Source: a virus (lineage: Duplodnaviria; Caudoviricetes). From it: DNA of 64,000 nt. The notes beneath the pieces were generated by a model. The model saw only the letters and a list, made by a program, of their open reading frames with translations, did no database searches and had not been told where the DNA came from. This document shows, in pieces, positions 6,001 through 58,021 of the stretch. The DNA lies in IMG/VR virus record IMGVR_UViG_3300042997_000909, positions 1 through 64,000 of that record, one strand, 5' to 3'. Within the stretch, counting starts at the first letter, position 1. Each line of letters begins with the position of its first letter. Both the position numbers and the translations under genes were made by a program.

Positions 6001-9000
6001 GACCCAATAGAAAATTTACTATTTGACATGTTCATGAGTAACTGGAGAAATGGTCTTCATGTTAATCAACTTATGGATGGTGATATGGCGTTAAATGTTA
6101 AAAACGCTCAGGATTATGTAAAACGTCTTAAGAAAATTGTTGCAACTGGTTCCAATATGAAAAATGGTACGCACAAAGTTGCTTACATGAATACTATTGT
6201 AGCATTTGCACATGAAGATATGCCTCAGTATGGTCCATACTATACTAGAGAAGAAATACTTGGTGACTTTACTATTCCTAGCGAAGAGGTTCGTGATGAA
6301 CTTCTTGAGGGTTATGACAAAGCAATTGCTGGTGCAAAAGAAAGTATCAATGGTCGTACAGTAAAATGGGCAGACATGATGCGTGAAGTTTTTGATGGTC
6401 AAAGTATTTCATCACTTATGCACCAAATGGACATGCATGAAACATTGGGGAGACTTGATGAACGTGCAACATACATCATGATTGCAAAACATTATAGAGC
6501 ATTGACTGAAGATGAAACAAGATATCTTGAATCATTTAAGATTGTAAACAACGCTAAGAAGACAATTACAGCTGACAGAAATATTTATCACAAATTGTCT
6601 GAAGGTTATATTGATAGAACAGATGTTAGCACATTAAACGTTAAACCTGTTGAAGGTGAGTCTATGGCAGATGCAATTGCAAGAATATATGATGAATTGC
6701 ATGGAATGTATATGTCTGCTTATGACTTACGTAAAGATCGTGAGATTGCAGCGACAATTGCAGATTCAGTGAATGAAGTTGCTAGAATTAATAAAGAGTT
6801 GGAAGACATCTATAGAAATATCCATGCATATTATGCACCATTACCACATCGTGAAATATTGCATAACATTCTGAACTCAATGGAACTTTTCCAGATAGAT
6901 CAGGTGATGGATACAACTGCATCTAAAAATGCAACATTGTTACCACTTGATGTTATGCGTTCTGATAAAACTGATGATGGGTATATCAATCTTAGAATGG
7001 CTGCACTGGATGTTCCAAACAGTGCAAAATACTTACAGGTAGAAACAAGTGGTGTAAAAGAAAAAGCAAAGCACTCTGTACAAGCTAAACTTTTGTTACC
7101 AGCAAATATCGCTGATGAACAATTTAGAGAAGTAATAGAAATTGAAGCACAAAAAGCTGGTAATATTTTAACTGAAGGTGATATTCTGGCAATGGAAAAC
7201 ATAAAGTATTCGTTAAACAATTTTCAGTTATCATTACGCCAGGCTACTAAAGCAAGACTGTTATACTTTACAGAAGTTCTGAGAAAAGGTGATGACTTCC
7301 AGTTAGGAAAAATCTTTACAATGATTCGCGAGAGTCTTGAATTACAAAATGCTCCAAAAAATATCCTAGACATGTTTGCTGTTAAAGCTGATGGTAAACC
7401 AGTTTTCAGTCCAAACTTGAGTCTTATAAGAAGCACACTTGAATACTACATGCTTGCTCAGTATAGTAAGAACGTAACAGACGAGAAGGTTTCAGGATTT
7501 AAGAACTTCCATGAAAGTGGTTTTGGGTATAACGTCTTAGTTGATCCTGTCACAAATCAGGTTATAACAACAGAGGAGTATGCTACTAATCCAAAAGCAT
7601 TTGAGGGTAGAAATCTACGCTCAAGACCACTAACAGTCAGTGTTGAAACTCAAGCAGATGGAAGTAAACTTTATTTTGTAGAAGCTATTATACCAAAACC
7701 ATTCTTTGAGAATGAGCAGCAAGAAAGATTCTTTAAAGAAAATCTTACCAAGATGTTTGGTGTACGTATTCCTACTGAAGACAAACGTTCAATGATTGCT
7801 ATTAAAGTGGTTGACTATGTTGATTCATCAAAACTTAACAACATTATTGTACCACAATTTGTACACATGCTGTCTGGTTCTGACTTTGACATTGACTCAT
7901 TGTTTGGTAGAATGATGTCATACTACAAAAATGGTAAAGGAAACTATTCCCTATATGGGAACTATGATCAATACAAGGATCCAAGAGTTGGTGAATTTAT
8001 TGAGTTCATGCACTACATGTCTAAGCATGAAGACATTGGACCTTTAATCAAGCAGCGTAAGAAAGAACTTGTTGAACAAGGTACAATAGAAATGACATCT
8101 AATGGGCCATTGTTTGAGGTTATTGACAGTCTTGGATATACACTTGAAGAATTAGGAGAACACTTTGACCAGAAAGTTGTAAAATCAAAATACGCTGAGC
8201 AAAAAGACTTTACAAGTTATATGTTTGAATTGACCAAGGAGTCAAAACAAATGTATGTTACTGCAAAAGAAATAGCTGAACAAAATCCAGAAAATAGAGA
8301 ACTTGCCAAAACAAGAAATGTTTATGGTAAAGAACTTGCTGATTTAAAAGCAGTTAGAAAGACTTCTGTAGACGATCAAAGATTGCTAAAAGCAAAGATG
8401 AACTACATTGATACATTGTTTGAGTATCAAGCAATTATGGATGTGTTGTCTAAGTTTGACATGCCAAGCAACATGGGAGAGTTTAGTGCAAGACCAGCGT
8501 TCTCACAAATGGTTTCACCAAAATATCAAAATGCAAACTTGACTGCAAGCTTGCAAATACTTGGAAATGAAGCTGTGTTTAAATATCTATATATTAACCA
8601 ACGTTCTTCAACACAAGAATTCAAAGACATCTTAGATAAATTTGGTATTGACTTAAAGGCAATTACAAAGAAATCAAACTTGTTTACTCCTACTAGTATG
8701 ATAGATTCAAAGGTAGAAAACAATATGAACAAAGATGGTATTGGACGTACTGCTGTAATGAACAAGTTTCTATCTCTTGCAAGTCAATACAACCTTAAGC
8801 TTTCTGACAAAGGCATGGTATGGATGTATCAAAACATGAATAAGGATATTATTCTGAAAGATACATTTGGCCAGTTGAATGACAAAGACCAAAGAGTTAT
8901 ATCTATCATAGGTAACATTTTAGGTATGTTTGCTGATGGTGCTAAAGATCCAATTCCAGCAGCTCTTCAAATGAATGAAATAAACGCAAGTACCACACTT

Positions 9001-12254: not shown

Positions 12255-15200
12255 ATGAGCGCATGTCCAAATCCTAATGACCAAGCTTGGAAAGACTTGG
12301 TAATCGCTTTGAGTAGCGAGGCAGATGCAATGACAGCATTTGTAAGAAATAATAATGAAGTCCCTACAGTAGAAAAAGCAAAAGAGATTTTAAAAAACTT
12401 ACGCATCCAAGATAAGGATGAACAACTTTCTCTTGCATCAGATCAGTTTAAATTAAGCAGATCAGTGCAGCAACGCGCAATGCTTGAAACAGTAAAACTA
12501 CGTTCAAACAAAGCACAGCGAGAAACTATTGAAAAGCTTATCGCGATGAATGACATGTACCAGGACTTTTTGAAGTCTAACATAGACGCAGCAAAAAATG
12601 GTACACCAATAGAAAACACATTAAGCGTATCCAAATTTATTGGTTCTTCAGAATTCAAAGGTGATCCAAAAGAATATGAAGCATTCAAACTCTTTGGAAC
12701 ATTTATGCATGAGTTATTAGAGATTGGTCAAGTAGAGGCGTTGAAAGCAAACAAGACTATTGCACAAATCTTTAATCCAGAGTTTTTTGAAGATGCTTAT
12801 GAGAAGTACACAAAAAAGAATCCTTTTGAAATACAAAAACTTTCTAAGGAAGAAATGTATGAAATGGCATTTGGATTAGTACAACATGTGAATACAAAAA
12901 ATGCAAGTGGATATGTAATCCTACCAGAGGTAACAATCGTTGGTACATCTCTTTCTGGTAGTAAGGTGATTGGGCGTCTTGATATTTTGATGATTGATGC
13001 AGTTGGTCGCGTACATATCTATGACTTTAAAACAAAGAAGATAAAATACCTTACTGAGCGAAATCCTTTTACAGGGCAAGATGAAGTAAACGTAGACAAG
13101 GCTCTGATAGAATTGGCTAATAAAAGATATCCAATTGCAAACACGCCAGGAGTTGCTACTGAGTTTCAAAAAATATCATTGCGTTCAACATATGATGTAT
13201 GGATGATGCAGCTTGATATTTACGATAACATCTTAAAGCAAAGTGGTATTAATGTTTCTAACAAGACCATCTCAGCTTTGATGTATCAGATTGATGAAAA
13301 CACAAACGAGTATGTAGCTAATGCATTGCATGTGTTTGAAGATCAAGAATATTATGACCAAGCGCGTAGTGCAAAAATTGGTACTGATGGTTATTGGTTT
13401 TCAAACATTGACTCAACAGAGGATGTTGTATTTAAAATTAAAAGAGCAGCAGCCCTTGAAATACCAACAGGTGAATACACTGAAGAAGAAATCAAAACTA
13501 AATCACCAGAAGAACTTTTTGACATAAACCCAACAGACAAAAACATGGGTGATTTTGTGAAGGTTCTTGAAAGTGTGATTGATGGTCAGATAAACAAAAT
13601 TTATAGTGACCTTGATGAGGCAAAAAACAAACCTAAGCGTGACGCTAACTATGAAAAACTTTTAGCTGCGCGAAGAGATACTCTTAACAACTTTAAAAAA
13701 ATTGTAGAGAAACTTAAAACTACAAATCCATCTGCACTTGTTAACTCAGCAAACTTTTTTAATGCTCTCAATGTAATGGAGCAAGACTTAGAAACAATGA
13801 GTCAAATCTCAAGAATGGCTCTTGATGCATACATGACTGGTGAACCAAATGATAAGATACGTAACTTAGACAAAGTACGTGAAGCATTCAACAAGAGTGT
13901 TGTTCTTACTACGGTAATAGATGTAATGACTGAGATTGTAAATGAGGCAGCTTCCAATGAAGAGAATGAGATTGGAGTAGACAGTCCTGTGAGACAGCGA
14001 TTAGCTCAATTGAGCATTTATGCAGAGCAGATTCAGTCAGATTTTAAAAAGATTGGTATGGCCAATGCTATCAGTGTACTAAAATCTCCAGGTGAAAGAG
14101 TCTTTACTGAAGTTCAGGAACAAGCACGTCAAGCACTTGAGATTGAATTAGAAAGATTGAAAGAGCAAGTTGAGAAACTTAAAACCAATCCAAAGTTAGG
14201 ATTGTATAAAAATGCAAAAATCAGATTCTTTAGTCTTACAAACAGAAACTTTAGAGAAAAGGTTAAAGAAGCAATGGGTCCAAATGGTAGCATTGTTCTT
14301 GGAGAGATTGATAGACTTGAAAGACGCGTCATGCAAATTGAAATGCTATTACAAGGATTTGAATTTACAGATGAGGCGATGGAAAAATATATCAGTGGTA
14401 TTACTGACCACACATCTCCTTTTTACGCAGGTATGCAAAATCCATATGCTGGTTCTGATACAATTCTTGGAGGCTGGATGATGGACAGTGCGATAGCATC
14501 AGCTTCAAATTCTGATTTAGCCATCTCAGCATTCACAACAATGTTGAAAGACTTTAAAGCACAGGCAGAATATAATGTGATGAATGATGCCAAAATGCAA
14601 AAGTTTGATAGAATGCGTCAGGCGTTATTAAATAAAGGATACTCTGTTGAGACTTTGAACAAAGTAGTTTCTGAATGGAGAGATGTTACTTATTTTAATT
14701 CTAAAACGCAAGAAGTAGAAACTAAAAAGGTTCTTACATATATCAAACCATTTAGTGGTGAGTATGAAAATACTTATAAAGGTTTCCAACAACAGCTACG
14801 CATACTAAATAAAGAAGTTTATGAGCTGCGTGCTGTATATAATGAGAAGTTTGACACTCCAGAAAAAGCTGAGGCAGAAGATAAGTACTTGAAAAAAGTT
14901 ACAGAAAGAGATCAACACAACAACACAATGATTGAGTGGATGTTGGATAATGCTAACCTTCCATATGTGGATGAGTTTTATAATCTTCAATTAAAATTAC
15001 CTCAAGACATACGTGATGCCTTACAAAAGATATATCTTGAACAAGAAGTTATCTTGCACAGTGTAGGTAAAGGTAATGAGGTTCTACTTGAAGAGGCAGA
15101 CTTTGATAGGTTAAAAGAACTTGATGCAGAAGCAAAAAGATTACGTCTTGATGCTATTGATCGTAGCCCTGAGTACGCAGAATATCTTGAGAAGTTTGAT

Positions 15201-18200
15201 GAGCTATATGAGTTTGACACTAATGATAACTTCTTCAGGGTTATGGAGAAGAATGCAGAGGTGCGTTTCTCAGATGATCCAGAAAGGTTAAGCAGCTGGT
15301 ATGCAGATAACACAGTATCACGTCCTACTGCAGACTGGTATGAACAAGTAAATGCACTATATGATGAGCGTTCTCAGTTAATGGAAGGTGATCCTGACAT
15401 TAAAGCACTGATTGACAGAAAGAAACGCATCATGGCGCCATATAAAAATGCTGGTAGATTTAATCCTAAATACTTAACTGAAGAAGAAATCTCAGAACTT
15501 GATGGTATTGAGGCAGAGATTGATGATATTCTTGATGGTAAAAAAGCACAGAAAACAACTTTGTCAAAAGAAGAACGAAGAGAGATTGCTAGAATCACAC
15601 AAGAAATTAGAAAACTTGTATCTTTTGAAATCAACCCTATTTACATAAAGGAGTTTGATACACGTTATAGAATCCTTGAAACTGCTTACAATGAGTTAGC
15701 AATTTCTCAATCAAACTTGGCTGTTGCAAGAACAAAAGGTGTTGATGCAGATATTGCTGAAGCTGAAGACAATGTAATTTTTGCTGTTAGGAGATTTGGA
15801 GAGGTTGAAGCTTCTTTCAAAACATGGTTTGAAAAAAATCACTATAATAAATACGAAAGCATCACTGTTAAGAAAGACTTAAAGGCCTACAAGGTTCCTA
15901 AATCATTTAACTTTGAAAGACTACCTTCTGCAAGTGTTGCAGATAAATATATGGAAACAGTACCAAATCCAAAATATTACAAAGTAAAACGTTTGAGAAT
16001 TGGTAACTGGACATTAGATGGTAGAAAACTTACAAATAAAGAAATAGAAGACCTTCAACAAAAACCTGATGAGATACGCGCACTACATGTTTCTGGTAGA
16101 TTGAATATGAAACCAGGAGCGTACAATGAAGCATACTTAAAAGGACCTGAAGGTATTCCATTACCAAAAGAGTTAACACTGAACGATGAAGGGCATTATG
16201 TTATAGATCCTAAGAAAGGTCCTGGTAGAAACATAAATCCAAAGTATCTTGACTTACTCAACAATAAAGAGCAATTTGAGTTCTATAATAGTATGATGGA
16301 TATCTTTTTTGACTTACAACAAAAAATTGAAGGTAGAAAAATTGGATACCAGGTTCCAGGATTTGCTTCATCTTTGATAGAAGGTATTGCAAATGAAAGT
16401 CTTGGAAAAGGTTTTGCTAAGCAATACAATGCTTTTCTTGACAGAAACTTTAAAGCGATGGGTCAGCAAGATATGTCAGAAAACATACATGGTGATATTG
16501 GTGCACGTATAAGAATGAGATTTTCTAATCAGTTAGGAGAAGAGATTCAGTCTTCAGATGCAATAGGTTCATTTATGAAATGGACAACAGAAGCACACAT
16601 GAATATTTCCATGCAAGAAATTGCTCCTAAATCAAAAGGATTTATTGAGTTTATGAAAGTTCAACGTGAGCAGCTTGCAAAAGACATTCTTAAAGGTGAA
16701 GTTTTTGTCACAGATGAGGTAACAGGTAAACGAACAAAGGTTGACATCAAGCAAAAACTTGCTGAGATGGATAACCTTATCAAGATACTTGAGTTTGAAA
16801 ACAATAAGTTCTTGTATGGTATAACAGAAAATGCTACTGATGCAGGAAGAGGTACTAAAAAAATCATTGATGGTTTCTTCAAGTATACCAGCTTTATCAG
16901 AATTGGTTTTGATGTTATCAACCAAACAAAAAACTACACTTCAGGTAACGTTCAGGCTTTCCTGGCTGCGGGAGGCAGCGACAGTGCGCATTACAGTAAA
17001 AGAGATTGGCTTTTTGCAAAAGGTAAAGTATATGGTTATGGTGGTTTCTTATCTAACTATCTTAAAGATTGGGGACGCATTTCAGATTTAACTGAAACTA
17101 CAATGCTTTATAGAATGATGAATCCTGCGCAAAAGGATATTATTAAGTATTTCTCTGACTCATCAGGAACAAAAGGTCGTAGACTTGCTGAAAAACTTGT
17201 GTCTGTAGGTGAACTTGGGTACATGTTACAAGATAAAGGTGATACAGAAATTGCAGTCACAGTGATGTATGCAATTATGAATAACTACAAGTTTGAACAA
17301 ATTGAAAGCATTGATCCTGTTACAGGAGAAAAGATATTCAAACGTGATAGCAAAGGCGAAGTGGTTATGGTTCCATCTCATGAGGCATACATCAAAGACA
17401 AGAATGGTAACTTGGTTATCAGAAATGATGTAAACTATTCTAAGGAGGATGAAAAACGTATAAGAAATATTGTTTATTCTGAGATGCGAAGAGCACAAGG
17501 TAACTATGCTGGTGCAGACCAGACAGAATTTGAAAGTAGGATACTTGGTAAAATGGTATTTTTCTTTAGAAAGTTCTTGGTTCCACAATTCTTGAATAGA
17601 TTTGGTTACTTGCGTCCTAACTGGGAAGGTTCTGAAGTTGCAGTAGGATACTGGCGTGCATTTGCAAAAGCCATGAAATTGTTTGGTGTGGGAAATACAA
17701 TGAAGGAGTTTCTTGTAGGTTCTGATACACTGTCAAAAATGGGCTTGTCAGGTGGTACAAAAACGTATGTTATAAAAGATCCAAAAACAGGAGCTGTTAT
17801 TAAGACAGTAGACGCTGGAGACTTTTATTCAAAGCGTGTGCATCATGCAAGAAGAGATGCAATTGCTATGACATTACTTACAATACTGAGTATGATGTTG
17901 TTGTCTTTTGTAAGACGTAGAGATGACGATGATGAAGAACTCAGCATGCTTGAAGGTAACGCCATACGTGTTATCTGGGGTACAAAATCTGAAACAGTAT
18001 CAATGTTCCCTGTTGGAGATGGTTCTCAGGAGTACGTTAAAAACTTTACCACAGCAATACCATTTGTGCGTGAGTTTTCAGCAACAATCAAGATGTTAAA
18101 TCATGGTTTAAAATATGGTATGGCAATGACAATGAATGGTGGTGAAGAACCAGATCCTGATTATGATTCAGAATTCTATCAAGAAATCTGGAAAGATGCA

Positions 18201-18341
18201 TTTTATTCTAGAAAGTCTGGTGCATATGAAAAAGGTGATGCAAAATTTGGAAAAGATTTTGTTGACCTTACTGGTATTAAAAACTTTAGAGATATACTTG
18301 ATCCTAACTATAGAATTGATGTACTTAAACGTAATCAATAA
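12255..18341 (+). CDS. Large virion cargo/ejection protein with an N-proximal PD-(D/E)XK nuclease-like domain and a C-proximal TM helix
   Basis: GTFMHELLE...PE...GRLDILMID...IYDFKT...QLDIY nuclease signature; long helical middle; hydrophobic AIAMTLLTILSMMLLSFV followed by RRRDDDDEE; position next to the vRNAP. Confidence 0.8.
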   Translation: MSACPNPNDQAWKDLVIALSSEADAMTAFVRNNNEVPTVEKAKEILKNLRIQDKDEQLSLASDQFKLSRSVQQRAMLETVKLRSNKAQRETIEKLIAMNDMYQDFLKSNIDAAKNGTPIENTLSVSKFIGSSEFKGDPKEYEAFKLFGTFMHELLEIGQVEALKANKTIAQIFNPEFFEDAYEKYTKKNPFEIQKLSKEEMYEMAFGLVQHVNTKNASGYVILPEVTIVGTSLSGSKVIGRLDILMIDAVGRVHIYDFKTKKIKYLTERNPFTGQDEVNVDKALIELANKRYPIANTPGVATEFQKISLRSTYDVWMMQLDIYDNILKQSGINVSNKTISALMYQIDENTNEYVANALHVFEDQEYYDQARSAKIGTDGYWFSNIDSTEDVVFKIKRAAALEIPTGEYTEEEIKTKSPEELFDINPTDKNMGDFVKVLESVIDGQINKIYSDLDEAKNKPKRDANYEKLLAARRDTLNNFKKIVEKLKTTNPSALVNSANFFNALNVMEQDLETMSQISRMALDAYMTGEPNDKIRNLDKVREAFNKSVVLTTVIDVMTEIVNEAASNEENEIGVDSPVRQRLAQLSIYAEQIQSDFKKIGMANAISVLKSPGERVFTEVQEQARQALEIELERLKEQVEKLKTNPKLGLYKNAKIRFFSLTNRNFREKVKEAMGPNGSIVLGEIDRLERRVMQIEMLLQGFEFTDEAMEKYISGITDHTSPFYAGMQNPYAGSDTILGGWMMDSAIASASNSDLAISAFTTMLKDFKAQAEYNVMNDAKMQKFDRMRQALLNKGYSVETLNKVVSEWRDVTYFNSKTQEVETKKVLTYIKPFSGEYENTYKGFQQQLRILNKEVYELRAVYNEKFDTPEKAEAEDKYLKKVTERDQHNNTMIEWMLDNANLPYVDEFYNLQLKLPQDIRDALQKIYLEQEVILHSVGKGNEVLLEEADFDRLKELDAEAKRLRLDAIDRSPEYAEYLEKFDELYEFDTNDNFFRVMEKNAEVRFSDDPERLSSWYADNTVSRPTADWYEQVNALYDERSQLMEGDPDIKALIDRKKRIMAPYKNAGRFNPKYLTEEEISELDGIEAEIDDILDGKKAQKTTLSKEERREIARITQEIRKLVSFEINPIYIKEFDTRYRILETAYNELAISQSNLAVARTKGVDADIAEAEDNVIFAVRRFGEVEASFKTWFEKNHYNKYESITVKKDLKAYKVPKSFNFERLPSASVADKYMETVPNPKYYKVKRLRIGNWTLDGRKLTNKEIEDLQQKPDEIRALHVSGRLNMKPGAYNEAYLKGPEGIPLPKELTLNDEGHYVIDPKKGPGRNINPKYLDLLNNKEQFEFYNSMMDIFFDLQQKIEGRKIGYQVPGFASSLIEGIANESLGKGFAKQYNAFLDRNFKAMGQQDMSENIHGDIGARIRMRFSNQLGEEIQSSDAIGSFMKWTTEAHMNISMQEIAPKSKGFIEFMKVQREQLAKDILKGEVFVTDEVTGKRTKVDIKQKLAEMDNLIKILEFENNKFLYGITENATDAGRGTKKIIDGFFKYTSFIRIGFDVINQTKNYTSGNVQAFLAAGGSDSAHYSKRDWLFAKGKVYGYGGFLSNYLKDWGRISDLTETTMLYRMMNPAQKDIIKYFSDSSGTKGRRLAEKLVSVGELGYMLQDKGDTEIAVTVMYAIMNNYKFEQIESIDPVTGEKIFKRDSKGEVVMVPSHEAYIKDKNGNLVIRNDVNYSKEDEKRIRNIVYSEMRRAQGNYAGADQTEFESRILGKMVFFFRKFLVPQFLNRFGYLRPNWEGSEVAVGYWRAFAKAMKLFGVGNTMKEFLVGSDTLSKMGLSGGTKTYVIKDPKTGAVIKTVDAGDFYSKRVHHARRDAIAMTLLTILSMMLLSFVRRRDDDDEELSMLEGNAIRVIWGTKSETVSMFPVGDGSQEYVKNFTTAIPFVREFSATIKMLNHGLKYGMAMTMNGGEEPDPDYDSEFYQEIWKDAFYSRKSGAYEKGDAKFGKDFVDLTGIKNFRDILDPNYRIDVLKRNQ

Positions 18342-26060: not shown

Positions 26061-27968
26061 TTATCTAACAGGACAAGCTCCTCCCTCACAATCTGCAATA
26101 TCCATATCATCAAGATTGATAGTACTATCAAACGATGAAATAGGAATAACATTTGCAGAAAGTTCATGATACTTCTCTTCAGTGATTTCTTCCAATGGCG
26201 CCTGGTCAAAACCATGCTCATTATGAAGTAAAAATGATACTGACTTAACGTTAACGTAGTTATCAGAAAGCCATTGTTTAATTGCATCAAGCTCATGCTT
26301 GCGATAATAGATTGTAACAGATACAGCATTGTCTGACCATTCTGCTTGAAGTCTTTTAATAACAGCAAGTTGATCAACTGCACTCATATCATTTGCCAAT
26401 AACGTATGTTCAGGAAACTTACAAGGAAAAGATACAACTACTGTGCTATGATCTTCAGTGCCATCAAAATTGCGCTGGAATTCTATTGGAAAGTTATGTT
26501 TTCTACAAACATTAACAATAGGACTATCAGAAGCCATTCTGATTCTACGTATGTAATGCTGAGAATAACCAGGATGTGCACCTGAAGTAACACCTGCAAG
26601 TAGACTTAAAGTTCCTGATGGTTTTACAGTTGTCAATTTAATTGACTTGTTCAATCCAGTTTTCTCACTGTAAGTCTCATCATACTGTCTCAAGTGTAAA
26701 TAACATTCTGACAACCAAGTTCTTTGTTCTTCTGTTGCTTGTAGGTATCCTGTTACACCAATACCCATGCGCATGTTTTTATGTACAATGTCCTCAGTTT
26801 CTTTGATTTCACACTTGATTGCCAAAGAATGCTTGTTAATTCTGTAAAGAATAGTAGCAACTTTTAGCAATTCTTCTAGTGACTCAATGTTAGGAAGATA
26901 GATTTCTGCCAAACAACAAGTTTCATAGTTAGCCAAAGACTGTTCAGCACAAGGATTGAAACCCATTACCTCTGGATCTGGATAACTTGTATCACCTGTT
27001 CTACCCATTCTGCGAGATGCATCAAGATTGATCAGGCCATATGGCTCACCATTACCATTGTATCCTTCCCAAAATTCTTCTGGCAACTTGGATATGTCAT
27101 CACACACTACTGAGTTGTTACTCATAGCACGCCAGTTAGGAATGCCTCCTAAATCCCAGCGTTTTGCACGCAAGAAATCAAAATCGTCATAGTCACCTAA
27201 AGCAATTTGAGCTGAACGTCTAACATTACCTGCTACAACAATACGTCCAATGATGTTCATAATATCAAGACAGTCAATAGAACGTAATCTTTTACCAGCT
27301 CTTGAGTTAAGGATATTGTTAATTTCTCCAATACCCCACACTAAATCTTGTGGTCCAGATGCAACTCCACCAAATCCCTTGATTGGTGAACCTTTTGAAC
27401 GTATCAAGTGACATGCATATGTAAAACCTTTACCAGTTACAAATGATGCTTCAAGCACACGTCTCATAAGTTCAACCCAACCTTCTCTTGAATCAGGTAC
27501 AATAAAGTCAGCGTCATTAACATCAATGCGCTCTACTTTTACCTTCTTCAAAATCTTAGGTATTTGATATACATGTTCGCGCTGGATGTTAAATCCTACA
27601 CCTGAACCTAACATCAACATTTCAAATGCCCATGTAAAAGGTCTAATAGGTTCATCACAAACAACAAAAGCACAGTTTTGCAAAGATGGTAATCCTAATC
27701 TGTCAACGGTTTTAGTACCTAGTTGCCATAGGAATCGTCCTGCTACTGTGCCTTTTAACTTTGTCATAATCTCTCTGAGATCATTTTCTTCTTCTGGCGT
27801 AAAGCCAACTTCTAATTGTTCTCTGCAAGAATCCACAACTCTTTCGATTGTGTCTTGCCACTCTTCTGATTTGCCACTCTTTGTTGGTCTTGAGTATGTA
27901 CGTTTATACGTAACATAACCCACAGGACCCCAGGGAATAACCTCAGCAGCTGCTTTTGTTTCTGTCAT
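26061..27968 (-). CDS. nrdJ: Class II (adenosylcobalamin-dependent) monomeric ribonucleoside-triphosphate reductase
   Basis: YKRTYSR, LQNCAF, GSGVGF, GNVRRSAQI, NPCAEQ catalytic motif, TTVKPSGT, C-terminal CEGGACPVR. Start taken at MTETK (27968). Confidence 0.93.
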   Translation of the reverse strand: MTETKAAAEVIPWGPVGYVTYKRTYSRPTKSGKSEEWQDTIERVVDSCREQLEVGFTPEEENDLREIMTKLKGTVAGRFLWQLGTKTVDRLGLPSLQNCAFVVCDEPIRPFTWAFEMLMLGSGVGFNIQREHVYQIPKILKKVKVERIDVNDADFIVPDSREGWVELMRRVLEASFVTGKGFTYACHLIRSKGSPIKGFGGVASGPQDLVWGIGEINNILNSRAGKRLRSIDCLDIMNIIGRIVVAGNVRRSAQIALGDYDDFDFLRAKRWDLGGIPNWRAMSNNSVVCDDISKLPEEFWEGYNGNGEPYGLINLDASRRMGRTGDTSYPDPEVMGFNPCAEQSLANYETCCLAEIYLPNIESLEELLKVATILYRINKHSLAIKCEIKETEDIVHKNMRMGIGVTGYLQATEEQRTWLSECYLHLRQYDETYSEKTGLNKSIKLTTVKPSGTLSLLAGVTSGAHPGYSQHYIRRIRMASDSPIVNVCRKHNFPIEFQRNFDGTEDHSTVVVSFPCKFPEHTLLANDMSAVDQLAVIKRLQAEWSDNAVSVTIYYRKHELDAIKQWLSDNYVNVKSVSFLLHNEHGFDQAPLEEITEEKYHELSANVIPISSFDSTINLDDMDIADCEGGACPVR

Positions 27969-28109
27969 AACTATAATTATTAAGGTAAAAAAAAAATAAA
28001 AAAGGAAAGGCAACAAATATCGCGAATTTTGAGTTTTGCGCCAAAGAAATTATAAAAAAATATTTTAAAAAACATATACATATTTCCACGTAATTTCAGA
28101 TATTTGTAG

Positions 28110-28125
28110 TATCTTATACTTGAGG
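28110..28125 (+). promoter_or_regulatory. Candidate late promoter motif TATCTTATnnnTGAGG (copy 2)
   Basis: TATCTTATACTTGAGG about 25 nt upstream of the lysis operon start. Confidence 0.5.
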
Positions 28126-28150
28126 GAGGTGAGAGTACAAAAAAAGACAT

Positions 28151-28627
28151 ATGAAAAAACTTTTTGTACTACTTACATTATTGTCATTGTTAGCTATTGT
28201 ATCTAGTTGTCACAATGCTAAATACCATTTGGATAAGTTCTATTCCAAAGGTGGTAAAATCACTTGTGATACAATCTATGTAGAAAAAACAGATACCATA
28301 GTTGTCAAAGGCAAAGATGGTAAAGACTCATTAATCTATATTACTTCCCAAGTACCCTGCAATTGTCCAGAAGCCACTGTAGAAACAAGATGGCAAACCA
28401 GATGGCAAACTAGATTTGATAATAAGAGATTCAAAGACTCACTGAAAATCATGGCTAGAATGTATAATGACTCATTATCTGCAGCAGTTAAGATTAATAA
28501 GCAAAATACCAAAGCTGAAACTAAAAAAACAAAGTATACAGAAAGATCAGGGTTTCCCTGGTGGATGCTGTTCCTTTCTATAATCTTAGTTGCAATCTTA
28601 TTAATCATCAAACAGTTTAGAAAATGA
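28151..28627 (+). CDS. Probable unimolecular spanin (N-terminal lipoprotein signal plus C-terminal TM)
   Basis: MKKLFVLLTLLSLLAIVSS-C lipobox; C-terminal FPWWMLFLSIILVAILLII TM then KQFRK; first gene of the lysis operon. Confidence 0.7.
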   Translation: MKKLFVLLTLLSLLAIVSSCHNAKYHLDKFYSKGGKITCDTIYVEKTDTIVVKGKDGKDSLIYITSQVPCNCPEATVETRWQTRWQTRFDNKRFKDSLKIMARMYNDSLSAAVKINKQNTKAETKKTKYTERSGFPWWMLFLSIILVAILLIIKQFRK

Positions 28628-28881
28628 CAAGTTCAGATATCGTAATGTTTATCCTAGGCACAGCTGTGACTGTTATTGGATACTTTTTAAAAATTGTACA
28701 CAGTGATGTGCGCAAAAACACAGAAGAACAAGGTAAACTTAAAGGAAAAATTGAACTTGTAGAACAAGAATCAAGATTAAAGTACCAAGCTATTCAAGAG
28801 CAAACTCAGTTAGAAATTAAAAATCTAGCAAAGAATGTGGGAGATTTGGCAGATACAGTAAGGCAATTAATAAGTAAATAG
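28624..28881 (+). CDS. Single-TM coiled-coil membrane protein (holin/antiholin-like)
   Basis: N-terminal IVMFILGTAVTVIGYFL then a coiled coil; ATGA overlap with the spanin gene. Confidence 0.6.
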   Translation: MTSSDIVMFILGTAVTVIGYFLKIVHSDVRKNTEEQGKLKGKIELVEQESRLKYQAIQEQTQLEIKNLAKNVGDLADTVRQLISK

Positions 28882-29996
28882 TGAAAAATCTCCCAAAAGA
28901 AGAATTATTAAGTAGACTTGAAGCGATCAATAGAAGCAACGCTATTATCTACTTTGACCTTGGTGGTATTATCACAGGGGTTAATGACATTTTTCTAGAG
29001 GCAATGGGTTATGGCAAAGGTAATCATGAAGATATCATTGGCAAACACCATAGCATTTTTGTATGTGATGATTATTCTAGATCACTTGAGTATGAAAAGT
29101 TTTGGGACATCTTAAGAAGTGGTAAATACTACACTGGAGAGTTTGAAAGAAGAAAAAAAGATGGAACTCTTATTAATCTTCAAGCAACTTATAATCCTAT
29201 TTTAAATGAGGATGGTAAGATTACCAAGATAATGAAAATTGCTACTGACATAACTATAATTGTTAATAGCAAAAAACAAATAGATGCTATTGACAGAAGC
29301 ACTGCTCTGATTAGTTTTAACGTTGATGGATTTATAACAGATGTGAATTCTATATTCTTAGAAACCATGGGTTATAAAGGCAATGAAAAAGCTAAAGTCA
29401 TTGGTAAACATCACAGCGTTTTTGTAAGTTATGAGTATTCCAAATCTGATGAGTATGCTAAGTTCTGGGAAAACTTACGAAAAGGTAAGTTCTTTGATGG
29501 AATCTTTGAAAGAAAAAAGGTAGATGGTTCTACTGTTTACTTACAAGCATCTTACAATCCTGTATTTGACAGCAAAGGAAATATTACAGATGTAGTTAAA
29601 ATTGCAACTGATGTTACTGAAGCTGTTACTAATAAGGCAAAAATAGATGACCTTACAAAAAACTTGCAAATAGAACTTGCTAATTCTCAAAAGCTTAAAA
29701 ATGCAATAGAGATAGAAAAAGATGCAGCTTTAAATGACTTGGATGTAATGATGAAGAAAAGTCAAAGTGAGCTAATAAAAATAATTGTCAAAGTTGCGTT
29801 GTCTGTTATAGTAGGAGTGGGGGCTGTAACAACTGTGTTATACTGGATGGCCATTGTAACAAATCAAGACACGCAGATTATTGGTTCAACATGGAGTAAC
29901 ATGTTTAGTGTATTATTAACAAATGCCTTTTCTATAGTTGGTACAATAATGGGTATCAAGTATGCTACTCAGGAAGGCAGCAAAGAAAAAAAGTAA
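28881..29996 (+). CDS. Tandem PAS-PAC sensor protein with a coiled coil and two C-terminal TM helices; no kinase, MCP or cyclase output domain
   Basis: Two ~120-aa repeats (AI(N/D)RS.A.I.F...G.IT.VN.IFLE.MGY...IGKHHS.FV...KFW..LR.GK...G.FER.K.DG....LQA.YNP.......KIATD.T) typical of PAS-MCP sensors. GTG start overlaps the upstream TAG. Confidence 0.9.
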   Translation: MKNLPKEELLSRLEAINRSNAIIYFDLGGIITGVNDIFLEAMGYGKGNHEDIIGKHHSIFVCDDYSRSLEYEKFWDILRSGKYYTGEFERRKKDGTLINLQATYNPILNEDGKITKIMKIATDITIIVNSKKQIDAIDRSTALISFNVDGFITDVNSIFLETMGYKGNEKAKVIGKHHSVFVSYEYSKSDEYAKFWENLRKGKFFDGIFERKKVDGSTVYLQASYNPVFDSKGNITDVVKIATDVTEAVTNKAKIDDLTKNLQIELANSQKLKNAIEIEKDAALNDLDVMMKKSQSELIKIIVKVALSVIVGVGAVTTVLYWMAIVTNQDTQIIGSTWSNMFSVLLTNAFSIVGTIMGIKYATQEGSKEKK

Positions 29997-30000
29997 GATT

Positions 30001-30276
30001 ATGAAAAAGTTTTTTAGAGAGCTTATATCTGATAACAATCACATCAATGAGCAAACCTTTGTAGGTGTAGTAGCATTTTTTGCTATGGTATTTATTTTAA
30101 CAGTTGATGTAGTTACAGGCATCTGGGGAAATGAACTTGTCATAAAAGAATTCATCTTTGATGGCTTTATGATTATCACTCTTGGTGCATTTGGAATTAC
30201 AACAGTAGGTAGAGTCATGTCACTTAAAAAAAAGAATAAAGATGAAAGTAACAAAAACAGCGAAACCAGGGATTGA
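30001..30276 (+). CDS. Two-TM holin-like protein
   Basis: ATG at 30001. TMs FVGVVAFFAMVFILTV and FIFDGFMIITLGAFGITTV, charged C-tail; overlaps the endolysin start. Confidence 0.65.
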   Translation: MKKFFRELISDNNHINEQTFVGVVAFFAMVFILTVDVVTGIWGNELVIKEFIFDGFMIITLGAFGITTVGRVMSLKKKNKDESNKNSETRD

Positions 30277-30700
30277 TTTAATCAAAGCATTTGAAGGGTT
30301 CAGAGCAGCTCCTTACAAATGTTCCGCAGGTGTTCCTACAATTGGATATGGAGCTACATTTTATCCTGGTGGTAAAAAGGTAACAATGACGGATGCAGCT
30401 ATAACAGAAGAGCAGGCTGTTGAATTATTGGCAAATATGCTTGTGAGCTTTGAGAAATATGTAGACAGCTACTGTGTAGATACTATTACACAGAATCAGT
30501 TTGATGCATTAGTTTCATTTGCTTACAACTTAGGACCAGCAAATTTAAAATCTTCTACGTTACTTAAAAAAGTAAACGCTAACCCTAATGATGAATCTAT
30601 CAGATTAGAATTCATGAAGTGGGTAAAAGCAGGTGGTAAAACACTAGCTGGTTTAGTTAGACGTAGAGAGGCTGAAGCAAACTTGTACTTTAAAAAATAA
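30242..30700 (+). CDS. Endolysin, GH24 phage lysozyme
   Basis: LIKAFEGFRAAPYKCSAGVPTIGYG (E-x8-C-x5-T), QNQFDALVSFAYNLG, GLVRRREAEANLY. Confidence 0.93.
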   Translation: MKVTKTAKPGIDLIKAFEGFRAAPYKCSAGVPTIGYGATFYPGGKKVTMTDAAITEEQAVELLANMLVSFEKYVDSYCVDTITQNQFDALVSFAYNLGPANLKSSTLLKKVNANPNDESIRLEFMKWVKAGGKTLAGLVRRREAEANLYFKK

Positions 30701-30704
30701 ACAT

Positions 30705-31166
30705 ATGCAACTAAGTAAAAATCTAGCATTAGCAGAAGTAACAAGAAGTGAAACTGCAAAGAGAAAAGGCATTAGTAATATGCCAACTCCTGAACACATT
30801 GAGAACTTTAAAAAGTTAGCTGAGAATGTGTTCCAACCTATACGTGATCACTTTGGTGTTCCTATACACATCTCATCTGGGTACAGAAGCAAAGCTTTGA
30901 ATACTGCTATTGGAGGGAGTTTGACCTCTCAACATTGCCAGGGTGAAGCAATTGATATTGACATGGATGGTACAGCAGTGACCAATGCTCAAATCTTTAA
31001 CTTTATCAAAGACAACTTGAACTTTGACCAAATGATTTGGGAATTTGGTACTGACAAAAATCCTGACTGGGTACACGTATCTTATGAGTCAACTGGAAAA
31101 CAACGCAAGCAAATCTTGAAAGCTGTAAAGCAAGGAGGAGCTACTAAGTATCTTCCATACAAATAA
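30705..31166 (+). CDS. Peptidase M15-family (Zn D-Ala-D-Ala carboxypeptidase-like) cell wall enzyme
   Basis: ISSGYRS, SQHCQGEAIDID, WVHVSY motifs. Confidence 0.88.
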   Translation: MQLSKNLALAEVTRSETAKRKGISNMPTPEHIENFKKLAENVFQPIRDHFGVPIHISSGYRSKALNTAIGGSLTSQHCQGEAIDIDMDGTAVTNAQIFNFIKDNLNFDQMIWEFGTDKNPDWVHVSYESTGKQRKQILKAVKQGGATKYLPYK

Positions 31167-31169
31167 AAG

Positions 31170-31289
31170 ATGAGCAAACGTAAATACAATATTAAAGTTT
31201 CAAGACCTGGTGTTCACGCTAAAACGAAAACATCCAAGTCTAAAAACTCAAAAAACTATCGCAAGAGCTATAAAGGGCAAGGGCGATAA
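31170..31289 (+). CDS. 39-aa highly basic peptide ending YKGQGR (below the ORF-track cutoff)
   Basis: ATG 3 nt after the M15 stop; MSKRKYNIKVSRPGVHAKTKTSKSKNSKNYRKSYKGQGR; lies before the operon terminator. Confidence 0.7.
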   Translation: MSKRKYNIKVSRPGVHAKTKTSKSKNSKNYRKSYKGQGR

Positions 31290-31340
31290 AAGGTGCAACT
31301 ATGCTTAATGTTTAGTTGGTTTTTCTTCTTCTGTAGAAAG

Positions 31341-31370
31341 TCCCCCAGTGATGGGGGATTTTCGTTTTTT
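31341..31370 (+). terminator. Intrinsic terminator of the lysis operon
   Basis: TCCCCCA-GTGA-TGGGGGA followed by TTTTCGTTTTTT. Confidence 0.85.
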
Positions 31371-31375
31371 ACAGG

Positions 31376-56152: not shown

Positions 56153-58021
56153 TTACAATGTGACTCTTTCTCTAATCAACTTGTCTACTTTACGCGACAT
56201 GTATCCTACCATTTCTCTTGGTAGATTTTTGATATCTGTCATCTTGATAAAGTAGTCAAACATTTGAGCTGAAGGAACTGACTCCTCTATTGCAATCTGA
56301 ATGACTTGAAACCCAAGATTTTGTGCTTTAGTCACTTTTGCACGAGTATCATTAATGGCTTCTTTACCATTGTAGTCATGTGCAGAAGGCTGACCATCAG
56401 AAAGAACAAACAAAATACCTGGGTTTTCTGTCTGTTTTCTAATACGTTTGGCAGTAGCAAGAATTGCATCACCATCACGGTTATTACTTCTTGCTTCTAC
56501 TGAACCTAATGCATATGTATCTGTATGAGAACCTGGTTCACGATAAACTCTTATTTGAGTTGACCCATAACCTCTCTCATCAGCAGTATGACCATAGATA
56601 TACAGTTTGACATCGCGCATTCCTTTGAATACTTCATTGATAAACACTGCAGCTTCACGCGCTTTGTCTATCTTAGTACCACTCATAGAACCTGACTCAT
56701 CAATAAGAACACCTACACAAATGTCATCAGTCTTTACTTGACCATAACGTTCATATACAGTTGGTACTCTTTGCGCTGCCTCAGCAATCTTGTTGGTATC
56801 TAATCTACCAGAACGCATAGACTTCATAGAAAACTGATAATCTTTGCTTTTGCGTTGAAATAACTTGCGAAGTACAGTAGCTTTTGTTGTATCAATCCTC
56901 TTTAAACAAGACTGATATCTTGCTTTGTTAGAATCAGACTTAATGAAAGTAACACTTCCATCACTAGCAGAACCTTCTTCACTATAATCCATATTAGGCT
57001 TAGTGTTTGTTGGCTCATTAGTCATTTCATCTACAAAGTCATTAAAAGCTGACATTTCTTCTGAGTCACTTTCACTTGATTCATCCTCACCAAAAGTGGC
57101 TTTCATCATTTCTTTGGCAAGTTCATTTATCTCAGACTTATCCATCGTTGAATCGCCAGGAGAACTTCCAGAACCTGAAGGAGATTCACCTTCATTCTCA
57201 TCATCACCATCATCATCACCATCACTTCCTCCACTGCCTGGTGGCTCTTCCTCTTCTTCAACGTACTTGTATACGATATTAGCAAGACTAGAAGCCATAG
57301 AAGAACAGTCGTCTGATGTTTCTGGAATACCACCATGCTTTTTGAGTAATCTCTCAATTTGCTTTAATGGTTTAGCAAACTCATCAAGTTCTTCTTCAGT
57401 CACATTTGCAGGATATCTTAACATCCTTGTGACAAGATCAAGTAATCTTTTCTGAGCTTTCTCTTCTGGACCCACTGGTTCATAGTTCTTGTCATACAAG
57501 TGATCCTTATACTTTTGAACAAACTTTAAGTATCCAGGCAATCTATTAGCCAACTTCTTGTCAATACGCTCAGTATTTAAAATACTAAACATATAATCCT
57601 TCAAAGAAAAGCCAGTTCTACCTGTATTTCTACATGTGACAGATTTACCATACTCACTTGTTGTTTGCATAGAAGCAAGCGCAGCATTTTGAATTGCAGC
57701 ACCATAAAATGCATCTAATATTTCTGGATCTGGATCGCGAAACTTTCCATCCTCATCTTTTAACATGTGGATAGGAATTTGCAAATCTGTATTCTTCTTA
57801 GGTTCAGAAGCTTTATAGTCAAATGTTTTGGGAACTCCAATAACTCTAAACATAGATCCAATCATCTTTGCAGATGTTTGAAGACTATCGCTAGACTTTG
57901 TAAAATAAGAAGAATAACTGCTTCTTCCACTATCCCAATTGAAGAATCTGTTTCTGTTGTCTGTGTATGTATAGGCTTCTTCTTTTCTCCTACCAAACCA
58001 GTCTTTAGCAAATTTGCTCAT
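56153..58021 (-). CDS. vWA-domain protein (CobT/NorD-like partner of MoxR AAA+)
   Basis: SGRLD, LIDESGSM (MIDAS DxSxS), NRDG, LSDGQP; acidic Gly/Ser linker. Confidence 0.85.
   Translation of the reverse strand: MSKFAKDWFGRRKEEAYTYTDNRNRFFNWDSGRSSYSSYFTKSSDSLQTSAKMIGSMFRVIGVPKTFDYKASEPKKNTDLQIPIHMLKDEDGKFRDPDPEILDAFYGAAIQNAALASMQTTSEYGKSVTCRNTGRTGFSLKDYMFSILNTERIDKKLANRLPGYLKFVQKYKDHLYDKNYEPVGPEEKAQKRLLDLVTRMLRYPANVTEEELDEFAKPLKQIERLLKKHGGIPETSDDCSSMASSLANIVYKYVEEEEEPPGSGGSDGDDDGDDENEGESPSGSGSSPGDSTMDKSEINELAKEMMKATFGEDESSESDSEEMSAFNDFVDEMTNEPTNTKPNMDYSEEGSASDGSVTFIKSDSNKARYQSCLKRIDTTKATVLRKLFQRKSKDYQFSMKSMRSGRLDTNKIAEAAQRVPTVYERYGQVKTDDICVGVLIDESGSMSGTKIDKAREAAVFINEVFKGMRDVKLYIYGHTADERGYGSTQIRVYREPGSHTDTYALGSVEARSNNRDGDAILATAKRIRKQTENPGILFVLSDGQPSAHDYNGKEAINDTRAKVTKAQNLGFQVIQIAIEESVPSAQMFDYFIKMTDIKNLPREMVGYMSRKVDKLIRERVTL

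What the first reader, a model, noticed from the sequence alone, without database searches (positions are those of the whole stretch)
28151..31370. Lysis operon with a membrane-anchored tandem-PAS sensor between two holin-like genes: candidate sensor-gated lysis system
Seen: a self-contained + strand operon with its own upstream motif and terminator, set among minus-strand replication genes. Order: u-spanin, 1-TM coiled-coil protein, PAS protein (28881-29996), 2-TM holin-like protein, GH24 lysozyme, M15 peptidase, basic peptide. Starts overlap stops or follow within 5 nt. The PAS protein has two PAS-PAC repeats (~28915-29255 and ~29280-29620), a coiled coil and two C-terminal TM helices, and no kinase, MCP or GGDEF output. 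Established: this repeat type, including the Trp in KFWD/KFWE, is that of flavin/heme-binding redox and oxygen sensors such as Aer, NifL, AerC and BdlA; holin timing is controlled by membrane antiholins (T4 RI, lambda S107). Inference: the phage joined a chemoreceptor-type sensory module to a holin/antiholin-like TM hairpin, so host redox, oxygen or energy state could set lysis time. I do not know of a described PAS-gated lysis regulator.
Basis: partly seen in the sequence, partly recalled or inferred. Interest (0 to 1): 0.9.

Follow-up and report, generated by a model that had tools for sequence, protein, structure and literature searches.

The report
Phage lysis-cassette PAS sensor membrane hairpin
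A complete 123-kb uncultured freshwater phage carries, among its cell-bursting genes, an optional protein that joins two cytoplasmic PAS sensor domains through one long helix to an almost invariant two-helix membrane hairpin, so the phage probably tunes when the host bursts to a signal inside the cell; no studied phage is known to do this and nothing has been tested.

Summary
Observation confirmed. Window 28151-31289 (+) is a tightly packed seven-gene lysis cassette ending in a strong terminator. It lies between minus-strand ribonucleotide reductase and DNA polymerase genes.

The 371-aa product of 28881-29996 has two PAS domains, one predicted helix (residues 246-326) that runs into TM1, a short loop and TM2. 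It has no output domain, and the genome has no receiver domain.

Interpretation partly supported.
- In 84 loci, an endolysin-type gene of four kinds lies within 1 kb of the PAS gene in 76. A small 2-TM holin-like gene directly flanks it in 58, although everything else is mosaic.
- Loop+TM2 is invariant (pN/pS 0.014, against 0.13-0.24 elsewhere; pS 0.64).
- Phages with the same backbone mostly carry PAS-less cassettes at this locus, so the gene is an optional add-on rather than the essential holin.
- No PAS-less hairpin was found.
- The nearest solved PAS domains bind FAD (MmoS, NifL, Aer), but only the Trp is kept. The Aer Arg-His-Asp motif and the flavin Asn are not, so the cofactor is open.
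- A specific antiholin role is not supported, because the invariant hairpin meets very different holin partners.

I found no paper describing this. This scan has found the same family on other phage DNA at least five times.

The parts
28017..28150 (.). Intergenic region between the divergent ribonucleotide reductase gene and the cassette; presumed promoter region
   Evidence: Sequence read. No promoter motif rose above chance. Inference only.
28151..28627 (+). 158-aa u-spanin-like protein: lipoprotein signal (Cys 20 after VSS) plus a C-terminal TM helix
   Evidence: It has no Pfam or PHROG family. In related loci it always occurs with the 85-aa gene. The name rests on architecture only.
28624..28881 (+). 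85-aa protein with an N-terminal TM helix and a coiled coil (i-spanin-like or holin-accessory)
   Evidence: It matches phrog_6179, of unknown function, at E 2e-6. ATGA overlap with the upstream gene.
28881..29996 (+). 371-aa PAS-PAS-helix-hairpin protein, the subject of the finding
   Evidence: Pfam PAS_3 and PAS_9. AlphaFold2 model with mean pLDDT 85. Thousands of metagenomic relatives.
28917..29255 (+). PAS domain 1 (residues 13-125)
   Evidence: pLDDT above 90. pN/pS 0.126.
29283..29624 (+). PAS domain 2 (residues 135-248)
   Evidence: pN/pS 0.149. It is the only PAS domain in the 251-aa single-PAS variant P0159.
29616..29858 (+). One continuous predicted helix (residues 246-326): a coiled-coil stalk running into TM1 (residues 301-326)
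   Evidence: DSSP helix 246-326. Hydropathy. pN/pS 0.152 for the stalk and 0.236 for TM1.
29865..29969 (+). Periplasmic loop plus TM2 (residues 329-363): invariant segment with one Ser/Thr/Asn/Gly face
   Evidence: Invariant in 67 distinct sequences. pN/pS 0.014 with pS 0.64. Helical wheel.
30001..30276 (+). 91-aa 2-TM protein with a charged C-terminus; class-II-holin-like and the best candidate for the hole-former
   Evidence: helices 17-41 and 50-88. It flanks the PAS gene in 58 of 84 loci and also occurs without PAS in related phages. No holin family match.
30242..30700 (+). GH24 muramidase endolysin, soluble (no signal anchor), with the E18-x8-C27-x5-T33 triad pattern
   Evidence: Pfam Phage_lysozyme E 3e-43. 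phrog_7 endolysin E 1e-54. Sequence.
30705..31166 (+). Peptidase M15 family endolysin (second cell-wall enzyme)
   Evidence: Pfam Peptidase_M15_3 E 2e-21. phrog_894 endolysin E 3e-40.
31170..31289 (+). 39-aa very basic peptide, conserved at the end of related cassettes
   Evidence: Found at 59-97% identity in related loci, including PAS-less cassettes of the same backbone. Function unknown.
31336..31373 (+). Intrinsic-terminator-like hairpin (12-bp stem, 6 G-C pairs) with a T-run

Best explanation
Window 28151-31289 is the lysis cassette of a complete 123-kb freshwater phage. Its 371-aa PAS protein belongs to a large family that I found only on phage or phage-like DNA. The family is an optional plug-in part of mosaic lysis cassettes.

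Most likely mechanism, all of it inferred:
- The two cytoplasmic PAS domains read an intracellular cue. This could be redox or energy state, or a small ligand; the cofactor is unknown.
- The change passes along the single continuous helix (residues 246-326) straight into TM1.
- This resets the packing of the membrane hairpin.
- The hairpin's invariant TM2, with one Ser/Thr/Asn/Gly face, then acts in the inner membrane in a way that does not depend on which holin the phage uses. It could self-assemble into a small leak that collapses the proton motive force and so triggers the holin, withholding that leak when the sensor is off. Alternatively it could act on a conserved host membrane target.

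The essential hole-former is probably the neighbouring 91-aa 2-TM protein, or a Phage_holin_4_1 protein in other phages. That protein would release the soluble GH24 and M15 enzymes.

Shown here: the architecture, the linkage to lysis genes, the optional status and the pattern of selection.
For: Architecture:
- Two PAS domains.
- A confident model of PAS-PAS, one helix 246-326, a loop, and helix 332-364.
- Lys-rich flanks on the cytoplasmic side of both TM helices.
- No output domain, and no receiver domain in the whole 123,450-bp genome.

Linkage to lysis, in 84 loci at 81-97% identity with otherwise mosaic neighbours:
- An endolysin-type gene (GH24, M15, GH19 or a PG_binding_1 protein) is adjacent in 41 loci and within 1 kb in 35 more.
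- Of the 8 loci without one, 4 are truncated contigs.
- Phage_holin_4_1 genes are present in 29 loci.
- More distant relatives keep the linkage. A 76%-identical copy lies two genes upstream of a PG_binding_1+GH19 endolysin, and the single-PAS form overlaps an M15 gene.

Accessory status:
- Among phages sharing the polymerase/reductase backbone (81-91% identity), only the window, L099 and L100 carry the gene.
- Others hold PAS-less cassettes at the same locus.
- tm91-like genes occur without PAS.

Action independent of the holin partner:
- Loop+TM2 has pN/pS 0.014 at pS 0.64, ten times tighter than the PAS domains.
- Partners vary from 37 to 90% identity or are of another family.
- TM1 variants do not track the partner subfamily.
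- TM2 has a one-sided polar/small stripe.

Background: holins are triggered by loss of proton motive force, and pinholins act by collapsing it (PMC9636201).
Against: - No experiment exists for any member of the family.
- The sensed signal is unknown.
- Gene position is circumstantial. Late-expressed membrane proteins of other function can sit in lysis regions.
- In 4 loci with full flanks no endolysin-type gene was recognised nearby (L028, L066, L078, L082).
- The monomer model is only moderately confident in the hairpin (pLDDT 58-72).
- An oligomer could not be modelled.
- Holins and pinholins are usually poorly conserved, so the invariance might instead point to a host target unrelated to lysis.
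Confidence: 0.5

Rival explanations
1. Specific antiholin. The hairpin binds the neighbouring 2-TM holin-like protein in the membrane and blocks or delays its oligomerisation. The PAS domains decide when the block is lifted, much as T4 RI does with holin T.
For: A tm91-like gene directly flanks the PAS gene in 58 of 84 loci and is near it in 13 more. The genes are translationally close-packed. Membrane-anchored antiholins that block holin oligomerisation are established (PMC11413866, PMC7182436).
Against: The hairpin's loop+TM2 never changes. The proposed partner, in contrast, falls into two subfamilies down to 37% identity (or less) with the window copy, is absent in 13 loci, and is replaced or joined by Phage_holin_4_1 proteins. 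Identical TM1 variants occur with both tm91 subfamilies. Known antiholin-holin pairs are specific to each other.
Confidence: 0.17
2. The PAS protein is itself the holin: a class-II-type hole-former whose triggering is gated by its own cytoplasmic sensor.
For: It has two TM helices, probably N-in/C-in, with charged cytoplasmic flanks. This is the class II holin topology (PMC9636201). Seven loci with an endolysin have neither a tm91-like nor a Phage_holin_4_1 gene.
Against: It is optional within one phage lineage, whose other members lyse with other cassettes. In 76 of 84 loci it co-occurs with another holin-like gene. At 371 aa it is far larger than known holins. It matches no holin family. Other small TM proteins were listed in most of the seven 'holin-less' loci.
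Confidence: 0.1
3. It is not a lysis regulator. It would be a late membrane protein with another task, such as superinfection exclusion, control of host respiration or membrane energetics during infection, or protection against a host defence. It would travel with lysis genes only because both are late, membrane-directed accessory genes.
For: Evidence for a lysis role is by position only. The gene is optional. The invariance of TM2 across phages binned with different host groups (Saprospira, Flavobacteriales, Ignavibacteria) would suit a conserved host target.
Against: Linkage to endolysins survives complete turnover of every neighbouring gene and of the enzyme type. In several loci the gene sits between lysis genes, for example between holin-like and endolysin genes or between spanin-like genes. 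It matches no defence-system family.
Confidence: 0.18
4. A chemoreceptor fragment or mimic that interferes with host chemotaxis signalling. JGI's automatic name for relatives is 'methyl-accepting chemotaxis protein'.
For: The PAS pair is 42-46% identical to the PAS arrays of cytoplasmic chemoreceptors. The source label appears.
Against: It has no MCP signalling domain. The C-terminal hairpin was found in no protein longer than 650 aa and in no cellular context. The probable hosts are Bacteroidota-like. Strong selection falls on the membrane hairpin, not on a signalling tip.
Confidence: 0.02

Closest known systems
T4 lysis inhibition: holin T with antiholin RI (PMC11413866); ICP1 holin TeaA with antiholin ArrA (PMC7182436)
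   Same: A phage-encoded accessory membrane protein in or near the lysis genes that adjusts lysis time in response to a sensed condition. It is optional for lysis itself.
   Different: RI senses superinfection through a periplasmic domain and binds the periplasmic domain of one specific holin. Here the sensor is a cytoplasmic PAS pair, there is no sequence similarity, and the invariant hairpin meets many different holin-like partners. No function has been shown here.
Class II holins and pinholins (phage 21 S68/S71) and dual-start antiholins (lambda S107) (PMC9636201)
   Same: Two TM helices, probably N-in/C-in, with charged cytoplasmic ends. TM2 has a hydrophilic/small-residue face, as in pore-lining pinholin helices. 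It sits in a lysis cassette.
   Different: At 371 aa it has a 300-residue sensor in front. It matches no holin family. It is extremely conserved, whereas holins diverge fast. It accompanies soluble (not signal-anchor-release) endolysins. The Met pair before TM1 that could give a short hairpin-only product is not conserved.
FAD-binding PAS redox sensors: MmoS (3EWK), NifL (2GJ3), Aer (8DIK)
   Same: These are the best sequence matches among solved structures (E 2e-8 to 4e-6). MmoS is the best structural match. The conserved Trp of the FW motif is kept, and the tandem PAS arrangement is shared.
   Different: The Aer R57/H58/D60 positions and the Asn of the NRRK segment are replaced (Arg at the Asn position). 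The output is a membrane hairpin rather than a kinase, an MCP domain or a NifA-binding domain.
Cytoplasmic multi-PAS methyl-accepting chemotaxis proteins (closest cellular relatives of the PAS pair)
   Same: 42-46% identity over both PAS domains. Shared motifs GKHH, FW, ASYNP and ATDIT.
   Different: They carry 3-6 PAS repeats and an MCPsignal domain and have no membrane hairpin. I do not know the ligand of this PAS subtype.
LytSR with LrgAB/CidAB (staphylococci); phage kinase-receiver-hairpin modules noted earlier in this scan
   Same: A sensed cellular state is coupled to holin/antiholin-like membrane proteins.
   Different: Those couple through phosphorelay and transcription, or through a separate receiver protein. 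Here the sensor and the membrane effector are one polypeptide. I could not test homology of this hairpin to the stand-alone hairpins of the phage modules.

Membership tests
PAS domain superfamily (Pfam PAS_3 / PAS_9) | Profile match above the curated cut-off, and the five-stranded sheet with flanking helices | tested here: met
   PAS_3 scores 83.9 bits (cut-off 25.6) and PAS_9 73.8 bits (cut-off 27), two stretches each. Model pLDDT is above 90 in both domains. Foldseek gives E 5e-16 to MmoS.
FAD-binding PAS sensors (Aer / NifL / MmoS type) | Conserved Trp after the F-alpha helix (Aer W70, NifL W87) | tested here: met
   W75 and W196 align with it. Both are present in at least 90% of the 57 rows of A3.
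FAD-binding PAS sensors (Aer / NifL / MmoS type) | Aer R57-H58-x-D60 segment and the Asn of the NRRK segment that contact the flavin (residue roles from my own knowledge of the Aer and NifL literature) | tested here: not met
   In the alignments these positions read V-S-Y-E-Y-S and Arg (R211 in PAS2; the equivalent Arg in PAS1).
FAD-binding PAS sensors (Aer / NifL / MmoS type) | Bound flavin | not testable with these tools
   Needs a purified protein and an absorbance spectrum or mass spectrometry.
Methyl-accepting chemotaxis protein (the label given by JGI) | MCPsignal domain | tested here: not met
   No MCPsignal match. The closest cellular PAS relatives do have one.
Class II holin | Two TM helices, N-in/C-in, with a charged C-terminus | tested here: met
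   Hydropathy peaks at residues 295-328 and 341-360, with Lys-rich flanks and a short loop. Helices 246-326 and 332-364. The topology itself is inferred from the positive-inside rule.
Class II holin | Small protein (about 60-150 aa) that is required for endolysin release and belongs to a holin family | tested here: not met
   It is 371 aa. No Pfam, PHROG or NCBIfam holin match, even for the hairpin alone. It is optional within its phage lineage. Hole formation itself cannot be tested here.
Antiholin | Specific binding to, or an alternative-start form of, the cognate holin | tested here: inconclusive
   There is no covariation between TM1 and the partner subfamily. The internal Met pair is not conserved.
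u-spanin (T1 gp11 type), for the 158-aa product | N-terminal lipoprotein signal with a lipobox Cys, plus a C-terminal TM helix, encoded in a lysis cassette | tested here: met
   Signal ending VSSC and a TM helix at about residues 133-153. No family-level homology. Function not testable.
GH24 phage lysozyme, for the 152-aa product | Profile match and the catalytic pattern E-x8-D/C-x5-T | tested here: met
   147.5 bits. E18, C27 and T33 are read from the translation. There is no N-terminal TM helix, so it is a soluble enzyme that needs a holin.

The most novel reading that the evidence does not exclude
The protein is a sensor-gated viroporin. A dimer or higher oligomer of the invariant hairpin forms a small ion leak whose opening is set by the PAS pair through the rigid helix. 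The phage would then collapse the proton motive force, and fire whatever holin it carries, only when the infected cell reaches a given redox, energy or metabolite state. That would be a new class of ligand- or redox-gated channel and the first dedicated intracellular sensor for phage lysis timing. It would be spread through thousands of freshwater phages as a plug-in module.
Probability: 0.22. Interest if true: 0.9.

Novelty: new variant of a known kind. Interest (0 to 1): 0.72.

Why it matters
Lysis timing sets phage fitness and burst size. The only well-studied sensing mechanism is lysis inhibition in T-even phages and ICP1, which reads superinfection from the periplasm.

A cytoplasmic sensor wired directly to a lysis-cassette membrane element would show that phages also read the physiological state of the infected cell to decide when to burst it. 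The family is abundant: thousands of sequences in lake metagenomes, in many phage backbones. It could therefore affect how viral lysis responds to oxygen, light-driven redox or nutrient cycles in lakes.

The invariant 35-residue segment may reveal a conserved weak point of the bacterial inner membrane or a minimal gated pore. The PAS-helix-hairpin design is also a simple scaffold for engineered, signal-controlled lysis.

Tried and rejected
1. PAS-less hairpin proteins. A search with the C-terminal 117 aa gave 1881 short hits. All 13 that I aligned start inside PAS2, so they are truncated gene calls. The one apparent exception, P0316, lies behind a 100-N scaffold gap with the PAS part upstream.
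2. Fused longer forms. No protein over 650 aa matched the hairpin (weak evidence).
3. phrog_1544 as a hairpin family. E was 1e-3, but at E up to 1 the profile rings in 11 of 14 control genomes. I treat this as composition noise.
4. Cultured phages. There was no match to the hairpin, and only three unannotated PAS matches from doubtful records.
5. ESM Atlas look-up of the hairpin. The best score was 0.78, which is uninformative.
6. Dual-start idea. The Met290-Met291 pair before TM1 could give an 82-aa hairpin-only product, but these positions are Ile/Leu/Ser/Thr in relatives. Rejected.
7. DNA-level conservation as the reason for TM2 invariance. Rejected, because synonymous sites are as diverged there as elsewhere (pS 0.64).
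8. Covariation of TM1 with the tm91 subfamily. None seen.
9. Fold search of the 91-aa protein. No significant match.
10. Defence-system families. None matched.
11. Bacteroidetes-type promoter box upstream. Not present and not enriched.
13. The earlier notes' claim that the hairpin also occurs alone beside a phage kinase and receiver. I could not reach such proteins by word-based searches, so it stays untested here. This genome has no receiver domain.
14. The giant ORFs at 1-11664 and 12255-18341 have no PHROG match. I did not verify the crAss-like or virion RNA polymerase reading.

Full report
WHAT IS THERE

The window is the first 64 kb of a 123,450-bp virus record with direct terminal repeats, rated complete. 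G+C is about 34%.

On the + strand, 28151-31289 holds seven close-packed ORFs:
- a 158-aa protein with a lipoprotein signal and a C-terminal TM helix;
- an 85-aa protein with an N-terminal TM helix and a coiled coil;
- the 371-aa PAS protein;
- a 91-aa 2-TM protein with a charged tail;
- a GH24 lysozyme (Pfam E 3e-43);
- an M15 peptidase (E 2e-21);
- a 39-aa basic peptide.

Gene junctions are a 4-nt and a 1-nt overlap, 3-4-nt gaps and one 35-nt overlap. A 12-bp hairpin with a T-run follows at 31336-31363. The flanks are minus-strand ribonucleotide reductase and DNA polymerase genes.

Only the 'own upstream motif' could not be substantiated.

THE PAS PROTEIN

Pfam finds two PAS domains and nothing else. 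NCBIfam adds only the generic PAS S-box.

AlphaFold2 on a 57-row alignment gives mean pLDDT 85. The model has two PAS domains with pLDDT above 90, then one uninterrupted helix from residue 246 to 326. The last 25 residues of that helix are TM1. A five-residue loop follows, then a second helix at 332-364.

Lys-rich segments flank both TM helices on the side of the PAS domains. The likely topology is therefore PAS domains and both ends in the cytoplasm, with a short periplasmic loop.

The whole genome has no receiver domain, so the protein is not part of a phosphorelay.

RELATIVES

More than 5,000 metagenomic proteins match. The best 120 are 86-93% identical and of the same length.

At the 50% cluster level only two further full-architecture clusters appear: a 371-aa form at 76% identity and a 251-aa form with a single PAS domain. 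All other hits are cellular proteins matching only the PAS pair.

The best of these, at 42-46% identity, are cytoplasmic chemoreceptors with 3-6 PAS repeats. They share the motifs GKHH, FW, ASYNP and ATDIT. JGI's label 'methyl-accepting chemotaxis protein' for the phage protein is therefore a transfer from the PAS part. The defining MCP domain is absent.

The hairpin was not found:
- in any protein longer than 650 aa;
- in any cultured phage;
- in any clearly cellular context.

The three genome-bin contigs that carry the gene (Saprospira, Flavobacteriales and Ignavibacteria bins, two of them from Lake Mendota samples) have the same lysis-gene neighbours, so they are phage DNA.

Short 'PAS-less' hits are truncated gene calls or a scaffold-gap artefact.

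LINKAGE TO LYSIS

I compared 84 loci: the window, 80 viral contigs and three from protein look-ups. The PAS gene is 81-97% identical across them (66-77% in the two outliers), while its surroundings are thoroughly mosaic.

- An endolysin-type gene lies within 150 nt in 41 loci and within 1 kb in 35 more. The types are GH24, M15, GH19 and a PG_binding_1 protein, in eight combinations.
- Of the eight loci without one, four are cut by the contig end.
- A tm91-like 2-TM gene directly flanks the PAS gene in 58 loci (37 downstream, 21 upstream) and is near it in 13 more.
- Phage_holin_4_1 genes are present in 29 loci.
- Spanin-like genes (a lipoprotein with a C-terminal TM, or a TM coiled-coil protein next to a lipoprotein) also recur.

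Homologues are not unlinked from lysis genes, and the linkage survives replacement of every neighbour.

OPTIONAL STATUS

Eighty contigs share the window's polymerase at 65-91% identity. Among those that also share the reductase and the 275-aa gene, only L099 and L100 have the PAS cassette.

Close relatives (polymerase 81-88%) carry, at the same place and ending in the same basic peptide, shorter cassettes without PAS and without tm91. Examples are:
- a u-spanin-like gene, an amidase-like gene and a small TM gene;
- a u-spanin-like gene, a 4-TM gene and another enzyme.

More distant relatives have tm91-like genes without PAS.

The 2-TM tm91 family can thus stand alone, whereas the PAS protein almost never does. 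This fits tm91 (or Phage_holin_4_1) as the hole-former and the PAS protein as an accessory.

SELECTION

Among 67 distinct sequences, residues 329-363 (loop plus TM2) are invariant. Pairwise pN/pS by segment:

| Segment | pN/pS |
|---|---|
| Loop + TM2 (329-363) | 0.014 |
| PAS1 | 0.126 |
| PAS2 | 0.149 |
| Stalk | 0.152 |
| TM1 | 0.236 |

Synonymous divergence in loop+TM2 is as high as elsewhere (pS 0.64). The constraint is therefore on the protein, not on the DNA.

On a helical wheel, S336, N340, S343, T347, S351, G354 and G358 fall within one arc of about 80 degrees, with T337, N348 and T355 beside it. This gives a continuous polar/small face, as in pore-lining or tightly packed TM helices.

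The partners next to this hairpin differ greatly, and identical TM1 variants occur with both tm91 subfamilies. The hairpin therefore probably acts on itself or on a conserved host component, not on one particular holin.

WHAT IS SENSED

The best solved matches by sequence are MmoS, NifL and Aer, all FAD-binding. By structure they are MmoS, DosP, NifL and FixL.

The alignments show that only the Trp is kept. The positions of Aer R57/H58/D60 and the Asn of the NRRK segment are replaced, the latter by Arg. I therefore do not file the domains as flavin binders. The ligand is open.

MECHANISM

The mechanism I think most likely is this. A PAS-sensed cytoplasmic cue is passed through the rigid helix to the hairpin. 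The hairpin then changes membrane integrity, or a conserved membrane target, and so advances or delays the firing of whichever holin the phage carries.

This rests on the fact that holins fire on loss of proton motive force and that pinholins act by collapsing it (PMC9636201).

Rivals, in order:
1. a non-lysis membrane function that travels with late genes;
2. a holin-specific antiholin, as in T4 RI-T (PMC11413866) or ICP1 ArrA-TeaA (PMC7182436);
3. a sensor-gated holin;
4. a chemoreceptor mimic, which is effectively excluded.

NOVELTY

Full-text searches for PAS together with holin, antiholin, endolysin or crAss-like phages found no description of such a protein.

This scan has met the same family before on other phage genomes. 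Follow-up agents reached similar readings. They also report a three-gene version (kinase, receiver, hairpin), which I could not test.

I class it as a new variant of a known kind, namely lysis-timing accessory proteins, with a new sensor-effector architecture. No step has been tested at the bench.

Noticed in passing
window 1-11664 and 12255-18341 (+): Two giant ORFs (at least 3,887 aa, open at the window start, and 2,028 aa) have no PHROG match at E 1e-5. Earlier notes read the first as a virion RNA polymerase of a crAss-like phage. I did not verify that.
   Followed up: partly
window 56153-59399 (-): Adjacent genes match an AAA ATPase of the 'porphyrin biosynthesis'/CobS-like PHROG (E 1e-36) and a CobT-like PHROG (E 5e-9). 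This is a CobS/CobT-like pair of unknown role in the phage.
   Followed up: no
window 31170-31289 (+); L098:11905-12051, L117:2657-2803: The 39-48-aa very basic peptide ending in KSYKGQGR closes the lysis cassette in all backbone relatives, whatever the cassette contains. It is better conserved than the lysis genes themselves, and its function is unknown.
   Followed up: partly
L098:12224-13730, L117:2813-4376, L126:11867-14021, L155:12114-14613: The same locus between the polymerase-side genes and the reductase holds at least four different lysis cassettes in phages with 70-88% identical polymerases. This is a hot spot of whole-cassette exchange.
   Followed up: partly
L040:6138-6740 and L041 (gene after the PAS gene): A 200-aa protein with an N-terminal TM helix and a globular C-terminal part follows the PAS gene in two GH19-type cassettes that lack tm91 and Phage_holin_4_1. 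It may be a second sensor-like membrane protein. I did not examine it.
   Followed up: no
L001:4609-6484, L068, L075: In some cassettes the PAS gene lies between, or directly before, a TM coiled-coil gene and a lipoprotein gene. These look like an i-spanin/o-spanin pair.
   Followed up: no
window 26061-28016 (-): The ORF list starts the ribonucleotide reductase ORF at a TTG, which adds a hydrophobic leader. The PHROG match begins at residue 20, so the true start is probably downstream.
   Followed up: no
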